Source: Trypanosoma brucei (lineage: Eukaryota). From it: DNA of 64,000 nucleotides. The notes beneath the pieces were generated by a model that was given only the letters and a program-made list of their open reading frames with translations, searched no databases and was not told where the DNA came from. The DNA lies in NCBI GenBank assembly GCA_000002445.1, contig CM000208.1:800001-864000 (forward strand), read 5' to 3'. Shown piece by piece: positions 48,519 to 61,204 of this stretch. Each line of letters opens with the position of its first letter. The stretch's first letter is position 1. A program made the translations under genes and the position numbers.

Positions 48519-50144
48519 ATGACAGAGGTAGCCGTTGATTGTTTCCCGACTCCAACCGTCAGCAGCCACAGTTTATCCAACGAAGTGAACAACAACGGGC
48601 GTGGTGGAGTGTCCTCTGGTGGCATGGTAGCGGTGGAAGACAAAGTGGCGCTGTTGCTGGCCGGTGCGAGGAAGTTGCTTGAGGAACCAACACCATCATT
48701 ATCGTGTCATGCCGAAGAGGTGTTGCCATGTGATGATGAGGAGGAGTGCCGACGCCGCTTGCGGTTTCTAGAGGCAGCCCATGCTTTTGTGGAGCAACAA
48801 CATGTAACTCAGAGGTATTTGAAGCGGGCTGTGGTTTCCTCACGATCAATAGGTGTGAACGCATGGACCAGCGAACAGACGCGAGGGGGCTTGCCTCACT
48901 GTTCAGCACGCGACTTGCCAGCAGTCGCTGTTATGATAGATGGGGAGCTAACTGATTGTGAAACTGAGGAGTGCCCAACAAGACACAACTTGTGCTTTTC
49001 CACTGTCTTACACATAAAGCCACGCGGTTTGTGGGCGAAGGACGCGGCTGTGCGGCGTCAGGGTCAGTACTGTAAGCAGTGCTTGGATCCGTTACACAGG
49101 TATAAGATCCCTCTTCCTGTGTGGAAGGAGGCTCGTTTTTGTTATTTCACTGGGATGTACTACTGTAATATGTGTAACTCTAGCCGCTATTCGGTGATTC
49201 CTGCGTTTGTTTTGAAGAAGTGGGATTTTAAACCGCGACCAGTGTGCAACGACGCGTATGAATTCTTGAAGTATCACCATAAGCATCCAATTTATCGCGT
49301 GTGTGCTCTTAATCCACGACTATACGAGCGAGTGGCACTGCTGCGGGTGGCCCGGAACCTGCGATCGCAGTTGATGAAATTGCGTGATGTGGGCATGAAG
49401 TGTGCTGTGCTGCGTCACCTTCTCTACCTTCACGACGCTCCTGTCGAACTTGAAAGGGACAGCAATCGTCGCCCCTCCAGAACCACAACCAACGCCTCAG
49501 CTACCAACCATGTAGCCACCTTTGTTGCCAGTGATGGTGATGCCGCCTCGTTTGCCGCTGATTGCTACGTGCCACGCACCCGGCGGTATTTATTGGAGAA
49601 CTGTGAACTTTGGTCATTATCTGACCTTGAGGATGTACGCCGTGGGCAGTTGTTGTTCCGTCAGGAGAGCGCTGGGCGCACAATGGCTTTTATAAAAGAT
49701 ACTTCCCTTATCTCGCAGTTGGCGGCATACAGCAAAGGTACAGCCGCTTTGTGTGGTGAATGCGATACGACTGTTTACCTCAAGCAAGTGCGATCTCGAA
49801 TTTTACGGCACATTCTTGTACACAGTTGTGCGACTTGCCTTGTTAATAGTGTTGACGTGTGTAGCATCTGTTGCCCTGCGGAGGTGGCTCAAAAGTTAGA
49901 GTGCATTAATGAGCAAACTCGAGGAGGTACACCGTTCGGAACCTGTGAGCATTTTTTTGGCTCGTTGATCAAAGATGTTTCAGTGTTGCCTTTTCTTGTT
50001 TATGTTTTCGACACATTGCATGTGTTCTGTTGCACCGGGTGTGGTAGTGCTTATCACAGACGCTGTTTTAAGGAAATGCAACATACCAAGGGCGATTTAA
50101 CATGCTGCCCGCGCTGCAGAGCAACACAGTTGATAAAAGAGTGA
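48519..50144 (+). CDS. Cysteine-rich protein with a Rubicon-homology (RH/DUF4206, DEF8/PLEKHM1/Rubicon-type) zinc-binding domain
   Basis: True ATG. 'QYCKQCLDPLHRYKIPLPVWKEARFCYFTGMYYCNMCNSSRYSVIPAFVLKKWDFKPRPVCNDAYEFL' parallels the Rubicon RH core '[45 protein letters not shown]'. Further C/H clusters 'CGECDTTVYL', 'CATCLVNSVDVCSICC' and 'CCTGCGSAYHRRCF...CCPRCRATQ' complete a multi-zinc module. Confidence 0.7.
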   Translation: MTEVAVDCFPTPTVSSHSLSNEVNNNGRGGVSSGGMVAVEDKVALLLAGARKLLEEPTPSLSCHAEEVLPCDDEEECRRRLRFLEAAHAFVEQQHVTQRYLKRAVVSSRSIGVNAWTSEQTRGGLPHCSARDLPAVAVMIDGELTDCETEECPTRHNLCFSTVLHIKPRGLWAKDAAVRRQGQYCKQCLDPLHRYKIPLPVWKEARFCYFTGMYYCNMCNSSRYSVIPAFVLKKWDFKPRPVCNDAYEFLKYHHKHPIYRVCALNPRLYERVALLRVARNLRSQLMKLRDVGMKCAVLRHLLYLHDAPVELERDSNRRPSRTTTNASATNHVATFVASDGDAASFAADCYVPRTRRYLLENCELWSLSDLEDVRRGQLLFRQESAGRTMAFIKDTSLISQLAAYSKGTAALCGECDTTVYLKQVRSRILRHILVHSCATCLVNSVDVCSICCPAEVAQKLECINEQTRGGTPFGTCEHFFGSLIKDVSVLPFLVYVFDTLHVFCCTGCGSAYHRRCFKEMQHTKGDLTCCPRCRATQLIKE

Positions 50145-54849: not shown

Positions 54850-56520
54850 ATGCGAGGGTGTGCAAAAGGCATCGGTGCTATATTTGCTGCTGATGCCTCG
54901 AATCATGTAAGGGGGAAATCCGTGAACGCGGATGAGAGCTGCTTTGGTGTTTTTCAAAATATGCATATCAACCCTTTTCCCGTTCGCGCCGCTATTGACA
55001 TTGGTACTGGTGGAATGATTACCATGGTGGTTGCTCGCGTTGACGCCGCAGCCAACGCCGTGCGCAATTTCATGTATCAGACGCAGCTACCGTTACACCT
55101 GGAATCTGTAGCCGCAGGGTTGGGCGACTCATCATCGTTCGTTCTTTCCGAAGCAACTCGAGCGGACATACGCAATAAAATGCGTGTGTTTCACGGTGCA
55201 CTCCGTCGTGATAATTATGATGGTCTTAGCGAACGTGCCGCTGTTATGTCGTGGCCGCTGTGCGAAGCCGCTGATGCACTGGCGTTAGCTGAGGACCTAA
55301 CGCGTGAGTTTAAGGTGGATGTGCGTGTTCTGGGGAAAACGTTTAATGTAAGTATGCCGTTCTGTGGTTCAGTTGGGTTATCAGCTAATGCGAGCCAGGA
55401 ATCAATGGAGGTTGACGTGCGGCGGGGTAGGCGCTGTTCTAATGCCTGCACCACTGCTGTTACTGGCGGCAGTGAAAGCGGTTCTGTTCAGTCTTTCTTG
55501 CATCATACTAATCGTCGTCGGAAGGAAAGGCAAGCGAAATTAGATTCACAGCGAGAGGTGCGTACTGTTACTGATGGTGATCGTGTGCCCAATGTACCGG
55601 CAGCTCAGCAGATGGAGCAGTTGGCCTTCCTTGCGCACGCCGCTGTGAGCAAGTGTGTTGCTCCGCAACGCTTGCTCATTCTTGCGGAGGATTGTCATAA
55701 AGGAATATGTGTGCTAGGCGCAGATACAGCTGAACCCGAAGAAGTAACCGACGACGAGACGGCGGCTAACACTAAAGGTATCAACAATAATAGCAAGGAT
55801 GCCGTTACGCACCAAGGAGTTGGGTCACCCACTGGATTACTTGTACATGCGTTGCCGGTCGATTTAGCGATGGCACACCGACTATTGGTTACGACGGTGC
55901 AACGTCGGTCGCAAACTACGGATGAAGGCGCCAACCAACGAAGCCCCAACCCTGTTCTTCGTGAGGAGTTTAGGAGGTTGCGCTGTCTGTTGGAGGAGGC
56001 AATGCACCACACATTGCCTCAGTGGGTTCTTGATAAGTCAAACACTGGTGGGGTCATATGTGGGTCAAGTTTTAACGGTGGCGTGCTAAACGTCGCTGCA
56101 CGAATAGCCCAGCGGTCTAGTGTCTCATTGGATCACCTCGAGACGCATGCGGAGATGCACTATTGTGGTTTAACGGATGTTCTGATGTCAGTCAACTATC
56201 CTAACGCGGCGACGGTAATACCCTGTGCTGCGCTGGCCAGTGCATTGTTACGGTCATTAGATGCACAGCGGTTTGAATATCTACCCGAGGTTCATATTCC
56301 TGCTGCTCTCCTCCTTCAGCCCTCACTGTGGACGTACACAAGGCGTGATCAGGTACGGAAGGCATTGAAGCAAAAACCATTTTACGCGGCCGGGAGCCTG
56401 CGGCGCACATTTCAGCGTCCCCACGCACGTGAAAATCCAACAGCTGCTCCAACGGCTTCGTGGCAGAAGAACAAGGAGTGGAATGCACTCTCATACGACA
56501 ATAGCACGAAAGGTACTTGA
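54850..56520 (+). CDS. Ppx/GppA-family (actin-like ATPase fold) protein, putative exopolyphosphatase-related
   Basis: ATG at 54850. An alternative in-frame ATG at 54961 sits just before the conserved core. 'RAAIDIGTGGMITMVVARVD...LHLESVAAGLGDSSSFVLSEATRADIRNKMRVFHGAL' parallels E. coli PPX 'FAAVDLGSNSFHMVIARVV...[32 protein letters not shown]'. Confidence 0.6.
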   Translation: MRGCAKGIGAIFAADASNHVRGKSVNADESCFGVFQNMHINPFPVRAAIDIGTGGMITMVVARVDAAANAVRNFMYQTQLPLHLESVAAGLGDSSSFVLSEATRADIRNKMRVFHGALRRDNYDGLSERAAVMSWPLCEAADALALAEDLTREFKVDVRVLGKTFNVSMPFCGSVGLSANASQESMEVDVRRGRRCSNACTTAVTGGSESGSVQSFLHHTNRRRKERQAKLDSQREVRTVTDGDRVPNVPAAQQMEQLAFLAHAAVSKCVAPQRLLILAEDCHKGICVLGADTAEPEEVTDDETAANTKGINNNSKDAVTHQGVGSPTGLLVHALPVDLAMAHRLLVTTVQRRSQTTDEGANQRSPNPVLREEFRRLRCLLEEAMHHTLPQWVLDKSNTGGVICGSSFNGGVLNVAARIAQRSSVSLDHLETHAEMHYCGLTDVLMSVNYPNAATVIPCAALASALLRSLDAQRFEYLPEVHIPAALLLQPSLWTYTRRDQVRKALKQKPFYAAGSLRRTFQRPHARENPTAAPTASWQKNKEWNALSYDNSTKGT

Positions 56521-56870
56521 ATGTCGAAGTAGAAGGGGAAATGGGAGTAATGGTAGCGCTATCCTCCACTCCCCTGCCTCGTTCGCGCTCACTTCATATC
56601 CAATTCGCACATTGTGTGCGGTTGTATCATACCATTCCCCCCGTATTAAAGTTTCAGCGATACGTCATTGGAGTTTCGGTTCTGCAGACACTGATAACGC
56701 CAGCTCTCTTAGTACCCTTTCTCCCTTCTAATATATGGTGTTCATGCCACTTACTGGCGTTCCCGCCTCTTTTATGCTGCATTAAAAAAAGAAAACTATT
56801 CGTTACCTCCATCTCAATGCACGTTGGTGCGTGTGTGAAAAATCGTTTGTGTTCAGGTTAAGTTGTGTGT

Positions 56871-57920
56871 ATGCTTCTTATAGTGTTCGTAGTCGGATTT
56901 CTGCTCCTTCTTACTGCGTTCGTTGCACTGCAACTGCGGAGGAGTCAACAGTTCCCGACATTTAGCGATGCAACCCCATCTCGAGTTGCGGCGAGGCGTT
57001 CAGAAACGCGACGGAGTCAATACAATGACGGAGATTATTGGAGTAATGAAAGTTCTGATGAGGGTAGCGACGACGATGATAATGATGACTGTGAAGTAGG
57101 CCACAAACGTGAAGAGAGGCGTAAGCTGCGCGGTGGAACCAGTGGCAGCGCCGGACCATTGCGGCACCGCCGCACGAGGCGCGGTGCAGGGAATGCTGCT
57201 GAGGCAGACGGGGACGGTGAGGAAGATAAAAATGGTTCTCAGACGAAATTATCTCGATTACAAAGAAAGAAACAAGAAAAAGAGAGAGAACGACAGGAGC
57301 GGCAGCAGGCGCAGGAAGCACTGCTAGAGAATCGGCGAGTGAAGCAGGAGGAGGAGCAGCGGCAACAGAAAGACCGCGAGCGTGAAGAGAGGGAGCGAGA
57401 GATTGCCGAAGAAGCAGCACTGCAGGAGTTGCGCGAGGAAAAAAAGCGTCAAGAAGATGAGGAGTATGCAAAGTGGGTTGAAGGCATTGGGGTGGTAGAG
57501 CGCGGTGAAATTGGAGACGAGGAGCGAAAGAAGCATGACAATCTTGTCAAGTACTTAATCACCATGGCGGGTAACGGCGGTGAGCGCCAACAGCAGCGGG
57601 TGATTGATGCAGAAAACTTTGGTGAGGGTGAGAAGGTCGGTGACGAGACAATAACAAGGGGTACCGAGTCAAGCAGCCGTGGAAATATACTGATTCTCAA
57701 CGACGTCGCACGAACGCATGGGTTGTCAGTGGAAGTCACTGTTCAGGTGATAGAAAAGCTTTTGGAGGACGGTGTTATCAGCGGTGTTTTTGATGACCGT
57801 GGAAAGTTTGTTATGCTTTCCGAGGAGCACTATAAGCAAATCGCAGAGTTTGTTAAACTCCGCGGCCGCGTTTCGATGAAGGAGCTTGCACGAGAGTGTA
57901 ACAGGATAATCATGTTGTGA
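56871..57920 (+). CDS. DDRGK1: DDRGK domain-containing protein 1 (DDRGK1/UFBP1) homologue, UFMylation pathway
   Basis: Track start 56865 is GTG and the ATG is at 56871. The N-terminal TM 'LLIVFVVGFLLLLTAFVALQL' is followed by a long E/R/K/Q-rich charged region. The C-terminus carries the eponymous 'GVFDDRGKFVMLSEEHYKQIAEFVKLRGRVSMKELARECN' (DDRGK motif plus winged-helix/PCI-like region). Confidence 0.8.
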   Translation: MLLIVFVVGFLLLLTAFVALQLRRSQQFPTFSDATPSRVAARRSETRRSQYNDGDYWSNESSDEGSDDDDNDDCEVGHKREERRKLRGGTSGSAGPLRHRRTRRGAGNAAEADGDGEEDKNGSQTKLSRLQRKKQEKERERQERQQAQEALLENRRVKQEEEQRQQKDREREEREREIAEEAALQELREEKKRQEDEEYAKWVEGIGVVERGEIGDEERKKHDNLVKYLITMAGNGGERQQQRVIDAENFGEGEKVGDETITRGTESSSRGNILILNDVARTHGLSVEVTVQVIEKLLEDGVISGVFDDRGKFVMLSEEHYKQIAEFVKLRGRVSMKELARECNRIIML

Positions 57921-58528
57921 CGAGAACCCCAGTCGTTGTTGACGGTCCTTCTGTTGTGCCATGATTTGGTTATTTGTACGCGACGTCTTGCCAAACCTCC
58001 TTATCTGGAAGCAGAATCCATAAACACTGAGAGGGAAAGCGGCGGGTCCGTTACTCGCCTTGTTGTTGTTCCCCAATGGCTGAATCTCTGCGGGGAAATG
58101 CACATGTTTGTGTTTGTAACCCTCTTGAGTTCACGGGTAAGTGATTGGTGGCGTTCGAAGTTTTGCCTTGAATTTTTCCCATGTGGTGCCCACAAATCCT
58201 AACCCTTCACCTTTCTTGCTCTGACATTTGTGTAAAGGAAAGTAAGCGTATACTCAGTCACTCCTCGCGTAAGATCACAAGTGGTCAAAAAATAAAAAGA
58301 ATACATATATTTGCACGTATCGTTGTCCTATTTGTGCTGAGCGTATTTGTAGAAGCGTACTGCGTAAACTGGAAACCGTGAGGAAATACTCGTTTAGGAG
58401 ACTGCTCTGCCAGAGGGGAGGGGGAAGAGTGAAGAGTGCTGACCGAGTGTTATCATCATCATTGTGTCAGCTTGTAAGGATACATTTAATTTTTTTTATT
58501 ATTGGAGCACCGTTAGCGTTACGACCAA

Positions 58529-61204
58529 ATGTCCTCACAGGACAGTGAAAGCTGGGGGAATTCGAGACAACATTATCAGTATTCGGATGCTTCCGAGGAG
58601 CATAGGCCAGAGGCGACAAAATTAAAATCTGAATGTTTTCAAAACGCTGGTCGCACCTCTCCAAATCGTCGCCGTGACTCCCCAGCGATACAGCAGGAAA
58701 GTAGTGACTTTGCGACAACATCAGATTCGCCTGTGCCTTGCCACTACAGCCAACGAGGGCCTGCAAGTCAAAACGCACAGCAGAAGGGGAAGGATAGAGG
58801 TGATGTTTTTTGCTCGACGGTTACGTCTTCAGACCTGTTTCCCACTGTTGAACTCGGCCCACGGATGCTTCCGACTAACTCCACGTCAATGAAAGGAGGA
58901 CGTTACGCCGCAGGCGACAGGTTACCCCAGACGCAGGAAACAGATAAAACTGACAAACCTGTACGTAACAGGTCTGAGCGCTCCGAAGGAACACCTCTTC
59001 CCAACTGTGGAACCGCACTTCGCGATGGTTCAAGACATTCTCATTCGCCAGCGAGTTCCTGCAGAGGGAACGACAGCTTAGTAACAAACGGGACTGCTAG
59101 CCAGAGAGAAACAAATGAAGAATCGTGCGATGTGTGTGGCAGCTGCTCAACACACTACGTGAGCGTTAGTCTGGGGTTGAGTGAGTGGGAGACGCTTTCT
59201 CCAAATCAAATAAAACTGCGGCAGTGTTTTGATGCGCCTATTGATTCGATCGCTGTGCCCTCTAGCGAAACGCACCGTTCATTAGCACATGAACAGCAGC
59301 GACAGCTACTGGAAACGATTATGCAAAAGCATTCAAGGAAACGGATCAAGAGGGTGACGGATTATATCCTTGGGCCCATCTGTGGTGAGGGTACATTAAG
59401 CACTGTTCGAGACGCGATTAACATATCATCAAACAATGTTGATCCGTTTCGGTTTCAACGTGTAGCCATCAAGTGCTATAAACAATCCGATTCTAAACTT
59501 AGCGAAGGGGCAGGCAGCTCTGATTGTTCACAACTGTCTTCACTGGCGTCTGCAACGAGGCGTCAGCAGGACGAGCTGCAGCGTTTGCGTGAGGCTGAGA
59601 AACGAAATTTGCAGTGCTTCTACTCCACAAATATTGTCCGCAGTATTGACGTCTTCTCGCATGAGGGGAAGCAGTACATCGTGCTACCTGCGGCTATTTG
59701 TAACTTGGAACAACTGGTGCAACTCGCCAAATGCCAGAACCGTTGTGCTTCTTGTGATTCAGTGAGAGGCAAACGAAATATGATTCCATCTTCAAAGGAT
59801 GGAGTTGATGGCAGATTTGAATTGATGCCCTCTCTGGGGAAACCAGCAGGAAAGTTGCCCCAAAATGATGTCAGCCTCTGCACAGGCGCTGCGAGTTTGC
59901 AAAAAATGTCCCCATATAGGAAAGTTACCTCACTTTTTGCGGCGGAGGTGGTGAGGAGCATTATGAACCAACTGCTTCGCGGAGTTGCATATTTACACCG
60001 TCAGGGCGTAGCTCACAATGACCTGAAACCGCAAAACATACTTCTGTTTGCCGATGGCTTGGTAAAGATAGGCGATTTGGCGAGCGTGTCTGTGAACTAC
60101 ACTGGTCATGGAACTCCAATGTACTTGTCTCCAGAGATCTGTAGATATTTTTATGATGCGGGGAATGAGACGAACGGTAGGGTTGCAGTGGTGGATGCCC
60201 TCAAGAACGACATGTGGGGGTGCGGCGCCATCCTTTACTATCTGTTGACGGGGAACACCCTGTGGGAGGACGGAGCGAACTGCCAGAACGTATATCAATT
60301 ATATCGTATAATTGCGGAGCGGAACACGCCTGTTAGCCTTTCTCATATTAATATACCTGCGGAAACCGAGGATGAACTGATATCCCGTCTTACAGAGTCA
60401 GAGAATATTTCTTTTAGGGCCACGGGTGGGTTGCGTCGCCCAACCGCTTTTCCACACACATCTCTTTTACACTTGGCGGCGGGTTTGTTGGACGTCAATC
60501 CCGCTACGCGATTAACTGCTGAGGAGGCTGTTCGACACCCATCGCTGCAAGCCCCTCCGGTAGATGATGTGCATGATGCCTTTCCAACTGATATGACACA
60601 AGGGGATGTGATGAAGGTGATGTTGGAGTCGCCGTATTACCAGCAGCTCATTAAGTGGGATCGGGAACGACATTTACAGTTTGCAGCGGAATGTTCCCAT
60701 GTTTTGGGTTTGCAGATACCAGAGGAGATATGCGTTTCAGCTCAAAAGCGTGCGGCCGATGGTTGTGGCATGGAGGCGGATGTGACGGACCCGCTGCTGA
60801 GATTACCAAGTTCAATTTACCGTTTAGTGGGGACTGTAAACCCTTCACTTTTCCTCCCCACGGATGAGTTTCATCACTACTTGAGGAAGTTGAAGGTGCC
60901 AAACTATGATGTATCGTCTCTAAGGGCAAATCCCTCTGCTGTGAAGATGATGGAGGATTATCTTCATACCGTGATGATGGAGTGCGGCTACACCGGAAGC
61001 GTCAATACACGGGAGCGGAGCGGGTCGAAAGAAGACCAAAACGGCATAAAGCTTTCGACAAGTCAGCTGACAACACGCTCCAGGGAGGACACGTCGCATG
61101 GTTTGGCCACTTTTAAAGACGATGATCAACCAGAAACTTTGGATCGTGTCTTAACTGACATGCCAAGTGACGGTCGCCCTAACTTCTGCTGCATTATCAT
61201 GTGA
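58529..61204 (+). CDS. Divergent serine/threonine protein kinase (NEK-like features) with a long S-rich N-terminal extension and non-canonical HND / DLA motifs
   Basis: True ATG. The kinase core is present: 'GPICGEGTLSTV' (Gly loop), 'VAIKCYK', 'VAHNDLKPQNILL' (HRD replaced by HND), 'VKIGDLASVS' (DFG replaced by DLA) and 'GTPMYLSPEI' (NEK-like APE region), then 'DMWGCGAILYYLLTG'. Low-complexity inserts occur between subdomains. Confidence 0.75.
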   Translation: MSSQDSESWGNSRQHYQYSDASEEHRPEATKLKSECFQNAGRTSPNRRRDSPAIQQESSDFATTSDSPVPCHYSQRGPASQNAQQKGKDRGDVFCSTVTSSDLFPTVELGPRMLPTNSTSMKGGRYAAGDRLPQTQETDKTDKPVRNRSERSEGTPLPNCGTALRDGSRHSHSPASSCRGNDSLVTNGTASQRETNEESCDVCGSCSTHYVSVSLGLSEWETLSPNQIKLRQCFDAPIDSIAVPSSETHRSLAHEQQRQLLETIMQKHSRKRIKRVTDYILGPICGEGTLSTVRDAINISSNNVDPFRFQRVAIKCYKQSDSKLSEGAGSSDCSQLSSLASATRRQQDELQRLREAEKRNLQCFYSTNIVRSIDVFSHEGKQYIVLPAAICNLEQLVQLAKCQNRCASCDSVRGKRNMIPSSKDGVDGRFELMPSLGKPAGKLPQNDVSLCTGAASLQKMSPYRKVTSLFAAEVVRSIMNQLLRGVAYLHRQGVAHNDLKPQNILLFADGLVKIGDLASVSVNYTGHGTPMYLSPEICRYFYDAGNETNGRVAVVDALKNDMWGCGAILYYLLTGNTLWEDGANCQNVYQLYRIIAERNTPVSLSHINIPAETEDELISRLTESENISFRATGGLRRPTAFPHTSLLHLAAGLLDVNPATRLTAEEAVRHPSLQAPPVDDVHDAFPTDMTQGDVMKVMLESPYYQQLIKWDRERHLQFAAECSHVLGLQIPEEICVSAQKRAADGCGMEADVTDPLLRLPSSIYRLVGTVNPSLFLPTDEFHHYLRKLKVPNYDVSSLRANPSAVKMMEDYLHTVMMECGYTGSVNTRERSGSKEDQNGIKLSTSQLTTRSREDTSHGLATFKDDDQPETLDRVLTDMPSDGRPNFCCIIM

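What the first reader, a model, noticed from the sequence alone, without database searches (positions are those of the whole stretch)
56871..57920. DDRGK1/UFBP1 homologue, the ER anchor of the UFMylation machinery
Architecture and motif match DDRGK1: an N-terminal signal-anchor TM, a long E/R/K/Q-rich charged segment (EREREIAEEAALQELREEKKRQEDEEY), then the C-terminal 'FDDRGKFVML...KLRGRVSMKELA' winged-helix segment containing the eponymous DDRGK motif. Established knowledge: Ufm1, Uba5 and Ufc1 exist in trypanosomatids and have been studied in Leishmania. A DDRGK1 orthologue would imply that the ER-ribosome (RPL26) UFMylation branch is conserved. The ORF-track start is GTG, and the real ATG is 6 nt downstream.
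Basis: partly seen in the sequence, partly recalled or inferred. Interest (0 to 1): 0.6.

Follow-up and report, generated by a model that had tools for sequence, protein, structure and literature searches.

The report
Trypanosoma brucei DDRGK1/UFBP1 orthologue, already annotated
This gene is the Trypanosoma brucei version of DDRGK1/UFBP1, the membrane anchor of the enzyme complex that tags stalled ribosomes with UFM1; the call is correct, but public databases already name it and published surveys already cover the pathway, so it is an ordinary finding.

Summary
The ORF at 56871-57920 (+) encodes a 349-aa protein. It hits Pfam DDRGK (PF09756) at 88.8 bits against a cut-off of 27.8. Human DDRGK1 is its best match in the PDB by sequence (1.8e-14) and by predicted fold (the top 7 Foldseek hits are all DDRGK1; C-terminal ~80 residues at 1.5-2.6 A). 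The whole architecture is kept: N-terminal TM helix, disordered acidic/basic linker, ~77-residue charged helix, UFIM-like linker, winged helix with an invariant DDRGK loop, and the C-terminal partial winged helix that binds UFL1 in human. The exact sequence is XP_822584.1 of T. b. brucei TREU927, which UniProt (Q38BR4) names "DDRGK domain-containing protein 1". Orthologues occur across the trypanosomatids. Published work already reports T. brucei Ufm1, Uba5, Ufc1 and a UFM1-binding C53, conserved RPL26 tail lysines, and a 153-species survey that included DDRGK1. The only lineage-specific features are a ~22-39-residue insertion before the winged-helix core and Ile in place of the UFIM Phe. I could not test for a T. 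brucei UFL1 or for localisation. No experimental work on a trypanosomatid DDRGK1 was found. Interest is low.

The parts
56871..57920 (+). Complete CDS of the DDRGK1/UFBP1 orthologue (349 aa plus TGA stop)
   Evidence: ORF. ATG at 56871 with an in-frame TAA at 56859-56861. PF09756 at 88.8 bits. Exact sequence equals XP_822584.1 / UniProt Q38BR4.
56871..56945 (+). N-terminal transmembrane signal-anchor (aa 1-25), followed by RR
   Evidence: Kyte-Doolittle 19-mer mean 3.09, the only hydrophobic segment. AF2 helix 2-25 with pLDDT 93-97. A hydrophobic N-terminus is present in the trypanosomatid and metazoan orthologues. ER targeting and C-terminus-in-cytosol topology are inferred from human UFBP1.
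56946..57248 (+). Disordered linker (aa 26-126) with an acidic Ser/Asp run (SNESSDEGSDDDDNDD) and basic RRxR patches
   Evidence: pLDDT below 50 over 29-126. Only 18% identity among trypanosomatids.
57255..57485 (+). Long charged single helix (aa 129-205), equivalent to the UFBP1 NTR helical arm
   Evidence: AF2 helix 129-205 with pLDDT 88-98. 57% identity among trypanosomatids. It aligns with the K/E/R-rich helix of metazoan DDRGK1. Ribosome contact is inferred from the human structure.
57486..57515 (+). UFIM-like linker (aa 206-215, IGVVERGEIG), preceded by the conserved EEY (aa 197-199)
   Evidence: It aligns without gaps to human 196-205 / metazoan F-x-V-E-E-x-G. It is non-helical between the two helices in the model. 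The 197-215 block is the most conserved region among trypanosomatids (73%). F196 becomes I206 in 17/17 trypanosomatids, V198 stays V208, and G202 stays G212 in 86/87 sequences. UFM1 binding was not tested.
57567..57674 (+). Trypanosomatid-specific insertion (about aa 233-268) between winged-helix helix alpha1 and strand beta1
   Evidence: 46 residues lie between aa 226 and 273, against 10 in metazoa, 32-49 in trypanosomatids, and 10-12 in the unnamed more distant relatives. Identity is 11%. The first part extends helix 213-249 and the rest has low pLDDT. The boundaries depend on the alignment.
57687..57821 (+). Winged-helix domain WH1' (aa 273-317; PCI-like)
   Evidence: AF2 elements E273-275, H276-283, H287-300, E304-307, E312-316 with pLDDT above 90. 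It superposes on human DDRGK1 at 1.5-2.6 A (8b9x_B, 8c0d_E). phmmer gives 1.8e-14.
57792..57806 (+). DDRGK motif (aa 308-312): R310 equals human R265, K312 equals human K267
   Evidence: D308 and G311 are invariant, and R310 and K312 are conserved in 85/87 sequences. The numbering offset comes from the 8ohd_C alignment. The roles of R265 (UFC1 D50 / CDK5RAP3 contact) and K267 (reported UFMylation site) come.
57822..57917 (+). C-terminal partial winged helix pWH' (aa 318-349; two helices, RGRVS block at 331-335), the predicted UFL1-binding half-domain
   Evidence: AF2 helices H318-331 and H336-348 with no strands. It aligns to human 273-302, within the 268-298 region that binds UFL1. RGRVS is nearly invariant, and I283 becomes V328, aliphatic in all sequences. 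Trypanosomatid identity is 58%.
56715..56870 (+). Upstream intergenic stretch with polypyrimidine tracts (56715-56729, 56760-56773) followed by AG dinucleotides; a candidate trans-splice acceptor region and 5' UTR
   Evidence: Read directly from the sequence. This is inference from the usual trypanosomatid gene structure and was not tested.

Best explanation
The ORF is the Trypanosoma brucei orthologue of DDRGK1/UFBP1. What is shown: it belongs to PF09756, it is closest in sequence and predicted fold to human DDRGK1, and it keeps the whole domain order of TM, disordered linker, long charged helix, UFIM-like linker, WH1' with the DDRGK loop, and pWH'. What is inferred from the human UREL complex: the N-terminal TM helix anchors the protein in the ER membrane with the rest in the cytosol; the C-terminal half-domain (aa 318-349) pairs with the N-terminal half-domain of a UFL1 orthologue to form a composite winged helix that stabilises UFL1; the DDRGK loop (R310) helps position charged UFC1~UFM1 and contacts C53/CDK5RAP3; the long helix lies along the 60S subunit; and the UFIM-like strand (I206, V208) binds UFM1 once it is attached to the RPL26/uL24 tail, helping to release 60S subunits from the translocon. 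My confidence that it is the DDRGK1 orthologue is about 0.97. My confidence that it acts as the ER anchor for ribosome UFMylation in trypanosomes is about 0.7.
For: PF09756 at 88.8 bits against a cut-off of 27.8, E=4.5e-25. Human DDRGK1 chains are the best PDB sequence matches, at 1.8e-14 to 2.9e-13. All 106 homologues carry PF09756, and the orthologues are named across Trypanosoma, Leishmania, Leptomonas, Phytomonas and Porcisia. The architecture aligns end to end. In the AF2 model the structured parts have pLDDT above 90. The top 7 Foldseek PDB hits are all DDRGK1, including ribosome-bound UREL (8qfc_D, 8ohd_C) and UFL1/DDRGK1-UFC1 (8c0d), with rmsd 1.5-2.6 A over 76-81 columns. The functional residues R265, K267, I283 and RGRVS are conserved, and the UFIM block is the most conserved region within trypanosomatids. 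The rest of the pathway is documented in T. brucei: Ufm1 Tb927.8.5380, Ufc1 Tb09.160.4150 and Uba5; a TbUfm1 structure with TbUba5 binding (cited); TbC53 binding UFM1 and ATG8; and T. brucei RPL26 listed among the 'UFM1 present' species in the tail alignment whose UFMylated lysines the authors report as conserved in such species.
Against: No localisation, interaction or UFMylation data exist for any trypanosomatid DDRGK1 in the searchable literature. A T. brucei UFL1 was not verified here; the literature says only that these genomes 'may encode an ortholog'. In L. donovani, Ufm1, Uba5, Ufc1 and Ufsp were reported as mitochondrion-associated, with a mitochondrial substrate. UFIM residues that were tested experimentally in human differ here (F196 to I, K193 to V), and a 36-residue insertion sits next to the UFM1-binding site. 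UFL1-DDRGK1 can persist without UFM1 in other lineages.
Confidence: 0.85

Rival explanations
1. It is a true DDRGK1 orthologue, but in trypanosomatids it anchors the UFM1 ligase at the mitochondrial outer membrane or at ER-mitochondrion contacts. There it would serve the mitochondrion-associated UFMylation reported in Leishmania (for example of the mitochondrial trifunctional protein), not ribosome UFMylation at the ER.
For: L. donovani Ufm1, Uba5, Ufc1 and Ufsp were localised to mitochondria, and a mitochondrial substrate was confirmed. An N-terminal TM flanked by basic residues is also the format of signal-anchored outer-membrane proteins (inference).
Against: The TM is very hydrophobic (KD 3.09) and starts at residue 2, which favours SRP/ER insertion (inference). 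The ribosome-branch partners are retained in T. brucei: C53 that binds UFM1, and T. brucei RPL26 sits in the 'UFM1 present' group of the tail alignment. The Leishmania 'mitochondrial fraction' was a digitonin heavy-membrane pellet, which would be expected to carry ER membranes too (my inference). The long helix that contacts the 60S subunit in human is well conserved (57%).
Confidence: 0.1
2. It is a DDRGK1 orthologue whose main role with UFL1 does not depend on UFM1 conjugation, for example as a structural or ribosome-binding scaffold. This ancestral role has been suggested for the Asgard-derived UFL1-DDRGK1 pair.
For: [quoted passage not shown]
Against: T. brucei has UFM1, E1, E2 and C53. 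The UFM1-facing UFIM block is the most conserved part of the protein among trypanosomatids. The UFC1-contacting R310 is conserved in all 17 named trypanosomatid sequences and in 85 of the 87 aligned.
Confidence: 0.04
3. It is a generic PCI/winged-helix protein, or a chance ORF in a charged low-complexity region, that only resembles DDRGK1.
For: Most of the N-terminal two thirds is compositionally biased (74% E/K/R/Q/D in aa 120-200). Generic MarR and PCI winged helices also appear in the fold search.
Against: The significant matches lie in the unbiased C-terminal domain (bias 0.0). DDRGK1 chains score 1e-7 to 3e-6 against at least 6e-3 for any other fold. The Pfam score is three times the cut-off. 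The protein is conserved with the same architecture in more than 25 trypanosomatid sequences.
Confidence: 0.01

Closest known systems
Human DDRGK1 / UFBP1 / C20orf116 (PDB 8ohd_C, 8qfc_D, 8c0d_B, 8b9x_A)
   Same: Same domain order: N-terminal TM, disordered linker, long charged helix, UFIM-position linker, WH1' with the DDRGK loop, and C-terminal pWH'. About 40% identity over the last ~80 residues, with rmsd 1.5-2.6 A. R265, K267, RGRVS and the aliphatic residue at position 283 are conserved.
   Different: 349 aa against 314 aa. There is a ~36-residue insertion between WH1' alpha1 and beta1. UFIM F196 is Ile and K193 is Val. The protein ends about 10 residues earlier after pWH'. The linker has an acidic Ser/Asp run. 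Overall identity outside the C-terminal domain is low. Function and localisation are untested in trypanosomes.
Trypanosomatid DDRGK domain-containing proteins (T. b. gambiense CBH15335.1; T. vivax, T. cruzi, T. rangeli; Leishmania donovani and L. panamensis; Leptomonas; Phytomonas)
   Same: Orthologues with 39-98% identity to the T. brucei protein (alignment A2), the same architecture, the same Ile in the UFIM position, and an insertion at the same site. The exact window sequence is the TREU927 / T. equiperdum entry.
   Different: Only the length and sequence of the disordered linker and of the insertion differ (32-49 residues). Some database entries (T. theileri, T. conorhini) lack the TM, probably because they are truncated or their start is mis-called.
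UFMylation pathway survey of Picchianti et al. 2023 (EMBO J, PMC10183829)
   Same: It already surveys DDRGK1, UFL1, C53, UFM1, UBA5, UFC1 and UFSP2 across 153 eukaryotes including Discoba, uses T. brucei C53 in binding assays, and aligns the T. brucei RPL26 tail.
   Different: It does not analyse the trypanosomatid DDRGK1 protein itself. The insertion and the F-to-I UFIM change are not described in the text I could read, and the figures are not held.

Membership tests
DDRGK1/UFBP1 (Pfam PF09756, DDRGK domain) | Match to the PF09756 profile above its gathering score | tested here: met
   88.8 bits against a cut-off of 27.8, E=4.5e-25. The best stretch is aa 273-347 matching profile positions 113-187 of 188.
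DDRGK1/UFBP1 | Closest solved or characterised relative is DDRGK1 and not another PCI/WH protein | tested here: met
   The top PDB sequence hits are all DDRGK1. The top 7 Foldseek hits are all DDRGK1, and the next class is at least 6e-3. BLASTP against eel DDRGK1 gives 4e-18. All 106 homologues carry PF09756.
DDRGK1/UFBP1 | Single N-terminal transmembrane anchor | tested here: met
   Hydrophobic aa 1-22, KD 3.09, the only such segment. AF2 helix 2-25. Aligned with the TM of the metazoan orthologues. The membrane identity (ER) was not testable.
DDRGK1/UFBP1 | Long charged helical N-terminal region (NTR) | tested here: met
   AF2 helix 129-205 with pLDDT 88-98. 74% E/K/R/Q/D. The feature is defined.
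DDRGK1/UFBP1 | UFIM (human 196-205) linking the long helix to WH1' and binding UFM1 | tested here: inconclusive
   A gap-free aligned, non-helical linker is present and is the most conserved block in trypanosomatids. However, F196 is Ile and K193 is Val, while V198 and G202 are kept. Binding to TbUfm1 cannot be tested here.
DDRGK1/UFBP1 | WH1' winged helix carrying the DDRGK loop, with the Arg (R265) and Lys (K267) | tested here: met
   DDRGK at aa 308-312. R310 and K312 are conserved in 85/87 sequences. The WH fold superposes at 1.5-2.6 A.
DDRGK1/UFBP1 | C-terminal partial winged helix (pWH') that complements the UFL1 pWH | tested here: met
   Two terminal helices without strands, aligned to human 273-302. 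RGRVS is nearly invariant and I283 becomes V328. Only the structural feature is met; actual pairing with UFL1 is not testable here.
UFM1 E3 ligase (UREL) system | UFL1 orthologue (PF09743) in the same genome | not testable with these tools
   A search with validated human UFL1 returned only the best 120 of 1312 hits, all mammalian. [quoted passage not shown] Trypanosoma is not among the lineages listed as having lost the pathway.
UFM1 E3 ligase (UREL) system | UFM1, E1 (UBA5), E2 (UFC1), C53/CDK5RAP3 and RPL26 tail lysines in the same species | tested here: met
   Met by literature look-up only, not by sequence search: Tb927.8.5380 (Ufm1), Tb09.160.4150 (Ufc1) and Uba5; a TbUfm1 structure with TbUba5 binding (cited); TbC53 binding UFM1 and ATG8; T. 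brucei RPL26 tail listed under 'UFM1 present', with lysine conservation in such species stated by the authors.
UFM1 E3 ligase (UREL) system | ER localisation and RPL26 UFMylation that depends on this protein | not testable with these tools
   No experimental data were found for any trypanosomatid DDRGK1. The Leishmania pathway components were reported as mitochondrion-associated.

The most novel reading that the evidence does not exclude
Trypanosomatid DDRGK1 is a lineage-adapted ER anchor. Its conserved insertion site next to the UFM1-binding pocket, together with the fixed Phe-to-Ile change in the UFIM, would retune how the ligase reads UFMylated ribosomes. That retuning might fit the unusual trypanosomatid 60S subunit; the link to the 60S is my speculation and was not checked here. 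The existence of this anchor would also mean that the 'mitochondrial' UFM1 pathway described in Leishmania is at least partly an ER/heavy-membrane pathway that should be re-examined.
Probability: 0.15. Interest if true: 0.4.

Novelty: already known. Interest (0 to 1): 0.12.

Why it matters
It matters little as a discovery. The gene is already named in UniProt and GenBank, and its family's distribution across eukaryotes has been published. Its residual value is practical. UFMylation has been studied in Leishmania only at the E1, E2, protease and modifier level, with a reported mitochondrial location, and no one appears to have examined the E3 membrane anchor in a trypanosomatid. This well-defined, single-copy gene is a simple handle (tagging, RNAi, knock-out) for asking whether ribosome UFMylation at the ER operates in trypanosomes, and for reconciling the ER and mitochondrial pictures.

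Tried and rejected
1. UFL1 in T. brucei.
2. Literature on trypanosomatid DDRGK1 or UFL1. Five searches and a further one found no experimental study. They turned up only the 2011 remark that an ufl1 orthologue 'may' exist.
3. The presence/absence matrix of Picchianti et al. (Fig 1A/EV1E) is an image and is not held as text, so the per-species DDRGK1/UFL1 call for T. brucei could not be read.
4. Other UFM1-pathway genes in the window. Pfam scans of the 20 other large ORFs found none.
5. Chance ORF, low-complexity artefact, or generic winged-helix protein: rejected.
6. The antisense ORFs overlapping the gene (56962-57471, 57449-57739 and 57726-58103, all on the - strand) are most likely by-products of the coding strand. 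This is my inference from the overlap with a conserved CDS; I did not search them against any library.
7. No tRNA genes in the window.

Full report
**Observation.**
The + strand ORF reported at 56871-57920 exists. The ORF listing gives 56865..57920 from a GTG. The sequence shows GTG-TGT-ATG with the ATG at 56871 and an in-frame TAA at 56859-56861, so the first ATG gives a 349-aa protein ending at a TGA at 57918-57920. The protein has one strongly hydrophobic segment (aa 1-22, Kyte-Doolittle 19-mer mean 3.09, followed by RR), and aa 120-200 are 74% E/K/R/Q/D.

**Family tests.**
- The protein hits Pfam DDRGK (PF09756) at 88.8 bits against a curated cut-off of 27.8 (E=4.5e-25). The best stretch is aa 273-347, covering the end of the profile.
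- phmmer against all PDB chains puts human DDRGK1 first (8c0d_B 1.8e-14, 8b9x_A, 8qfc_D, 8ohd_C). Residues 269-347 align to human 224-302 with no compositional bias.
- BLASTP against a vertebrate DDRGK1 (eel, P0061) gives 4e-18 and 39% identity over 77 residues.

**Organism and prior annotation.**
- The homologue search returned 106 proteins, all carrying PF09756. The closest are Trypanosoma brucei gambiense (98%), T. vivax, T. rangeli, T. cruzi, Leptomonas, Phytomonas, Leishmania and Porcisia. More distant are metazoan DDRGK1 proteins.
- The exact 349-aa sequence is already public. It is XP_822584.1/EAN77756.1 of T. b. brucei TREU927 ("hypothetical protein, conserved"), UniProt Q38BR4 ("DDRGK domain-containing protein 1"), and T. 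equiperdum SCU66772.1 ("DDRGK domain containing protein, putative"). It sits on a 4.05-Mb contig.
- The window is therefore a T. brucei-group chromosome segment.
- All large ORFs lie on the + strand, as expected for a trypanosomatid polycistronic unit. None of the other 20 large ORFs belongs to the UFM1 pathway.

**Anatomy.**
A 13-sequence alignment shows that the whole architecture aligns between trypanosomatids and metazoa. The shared elements are the N-terminal hydrophobic segment, a variable linker, a charged helix, the EEY and V-E-E-x-G block, the winged helix with (D)DRGK, and the RGRVS block. An AF2 model built on 87 sequences (mean pLDDT 75.7; 181 residues at 90 or above) gives the following elements:
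- a TM helix at 2-25;
- disorder at 29-126;
- a single helix at 129-205;
- a short non-helical linker at 206-212;
- a helix at 213-249;
- a low-confidence loop;
- a compact winged helix (E273-275, H276-283, H287-300, E304-307, E312-316);
- two terminal helices (H318-331, H336-348) with no strands.

Foldseek against the PDB returns only human DDRGK1 chains in the top seven. These include the ribosome-bound E3 complex (8qfc_D, 8ohd_C), UFL1/DDRGK1-UFC1 (8c0d) and the DDRGK1-UFL1 chimera (8b9x). The C-terminal 76-81 columns superpose at 1.5-2.6 A. Generic PCI and MarR winged helices follow at E of at least 6e-3.

**Mapping of functional residues.**
The defining features of human UFBP1 were taken from the structural papers. 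They are an N-terminal TM anchoring the ligase at the ER, and a long helix (NTR). A ten-residue UFIM (196-205) joins the helix to WH1' and binds UFM1, and F196A blocks 60S release from the translocon. R265 of the DDRGK loop contacts UFC1 D50 or CDK5RAP3. A partial winged helix, pWH' (aa 268-298, with I283 against UFL1 L45), completes the UFL1 pWH. K267 is the reported UFMylation site. In the window protein these map as follows:

| Human residue | Window protein | Conservation |
|---|---|---|
| R265 | R310 | 85/87 sequences |
| K267 | K312 | 85/87 sequences |
| I283 | V328 | aliphatic in all |
| RGRVS block | aa 331-335 | nearly invariant |
| G202 | G212 | 86/87 sequences |
| V198 | V208 | kept |
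| F196 | I206 | Ile in 17/17 named trypanosomatids, Phe in 19/19 metazoa |
| K193 | V203 | changed |

Among trypanosomatids the EEY/UFIM block is the most conserved region (73% identity to T. brucei). Next come pWH' (58%), the long helix (57%) and WH1' (52%). The linker (18%) and the insertion (11%) are not conserved.

**Lineage-specific feature.**
Between WH1' helix alpha1 and strand beta1, T. brucei has 46 residues where metazoa have 10. Named trypanosomatids have 32-49, and the unnamed, more distant relatives in the hit list have 10-12. The insertion site is thus a trypanosomatid character. Its sequence is not conserved and most of it is predicted with low confidence.

**Pathway context from the literature.**
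- Gannavaram et al. 2011 identified T. brucei Ufm1 (Tb927.8.5380), Ufc1 (Tb09.160.4150) and Uba5. [quoted passage not shown]
- A TbUfm1 solution structure with TbUba5 binding is cited in a 2026 review.
- Picchianti et al. 2023 searched 153 eukaryotes for the whole pathway, including DDRGK1 and UFL1, and did not list Trypanosoma among the lineages that lost it.
- The same paper showed that T. brucei C53 binds UFM1 and ATG8. [quoted passage not shown] It also showed ER-linked RPL26 UFMylation in a unicellular alga.
- The paper also warns that UFL1-DDRGK1 is often retained without UFM1.
- The Leishmania studies report a mitochondrion-associated pathway. Their "mitochondrial" fraction was a digitonin heavy-membrane pellet, which I would expect to carry ER membranes too; this is my inference.
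- No paper on a trypanosomatid DDRGK1 was found.

**What could not be done.**
I could not show a UFL1 orthologue in T. brucei. Localisation, UFL1 binding and UFM1 binding are experimental questions.

**Verdict.**
The most likely mechanism is the canonical one. A TM anchor at the ER recruits and stabilises UFL1 through a composite winged helix. The DDRGK loop helps position UFC1~UFM1. The helix and the UFIM-like strand engage the 60S subunit and RPL26-linked UFM1. I put this at about 0.7, since it is inferred from conservation of the relevant surfaces and from the published presence of the partners. The main rival is a mitochondrion-associated role, as proposed for Leishmania (about 0.1). The finding is already known at the level of annotation and phylogenomics. 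The only new details are the insertion and the Phe-to-Ile UFIM change, both minor. Interest is low.

Noticed in passing
window 1-64000: All 22 non-overlapping ORFs of at least 200 aa lie on the + strand. The only two on the - strand overlap larger + strand ORFs. This is consistent with a single trypanosomatid polycistronic transcription unit. No tRNA genes were found.
   Followed up: partly
window 48519-50144 (+): A 541-aa ORF with a Rubicon Homology domain (PF13901, E=8.9e-29), which suggests a trypanosome member of the Rubicon-homology family. It lies three genes upstream of DDRGK1, but adjacency carries no functional meaning in these genomes.
   Followed up: no
window 54850-56520 (+): The 556-aa ORF immediately upstream has only a marginal Pfam hit (Aminotran_1_2, 21.5 bits against a cut-off of 19.7, a partial match of aa 54-187 to profile 225-355). 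It is effectively an uncharacterised protein.
   Followed up: no
window 58529-61204 (+): The 891-aa ORF immediately downstream reads like a protein kinase (HNDLKPQN and GTPMYLSPE motifs visible in the translation), with long low-complexity N- and C-terminal extensions. It was not scanned against Pfam.
   Followed up: no
window 57036-57086 (aa 56-72 of the DDRGK1 protein): An acidic Ser/Asp run (YWSNESSDEGSDDDDNDD) lies in the disordered linker. Other trypanosomatid orthologues also have acidic patches here, but with no conserved sequence. It could be a phosphorylation or charge patch.
   Followed up: no
P0008 (T. theileri, 275 aa) and P0007 (T. conorhini, 225 aa): These database orthologues lack the N-terminal TM segment that the others have. 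The likely cause is a truncated model or a mis-called start, not a real loss.
   Followed up: no
window 5160-32293 (+): The other genes in the unit are an unrelated housekeeping mix: TRM5/TYW2 methyltransferase, acyltransferase, DNA primase large subunit, Cox11, an LRR protein, GNAT, an ABCF-type ABC ATPase, an ESCO-type zinc-finger protein, a CCCH/CCHC zinc-finger protein and an aldehyde dehydrogenase.
   Followed up: partly
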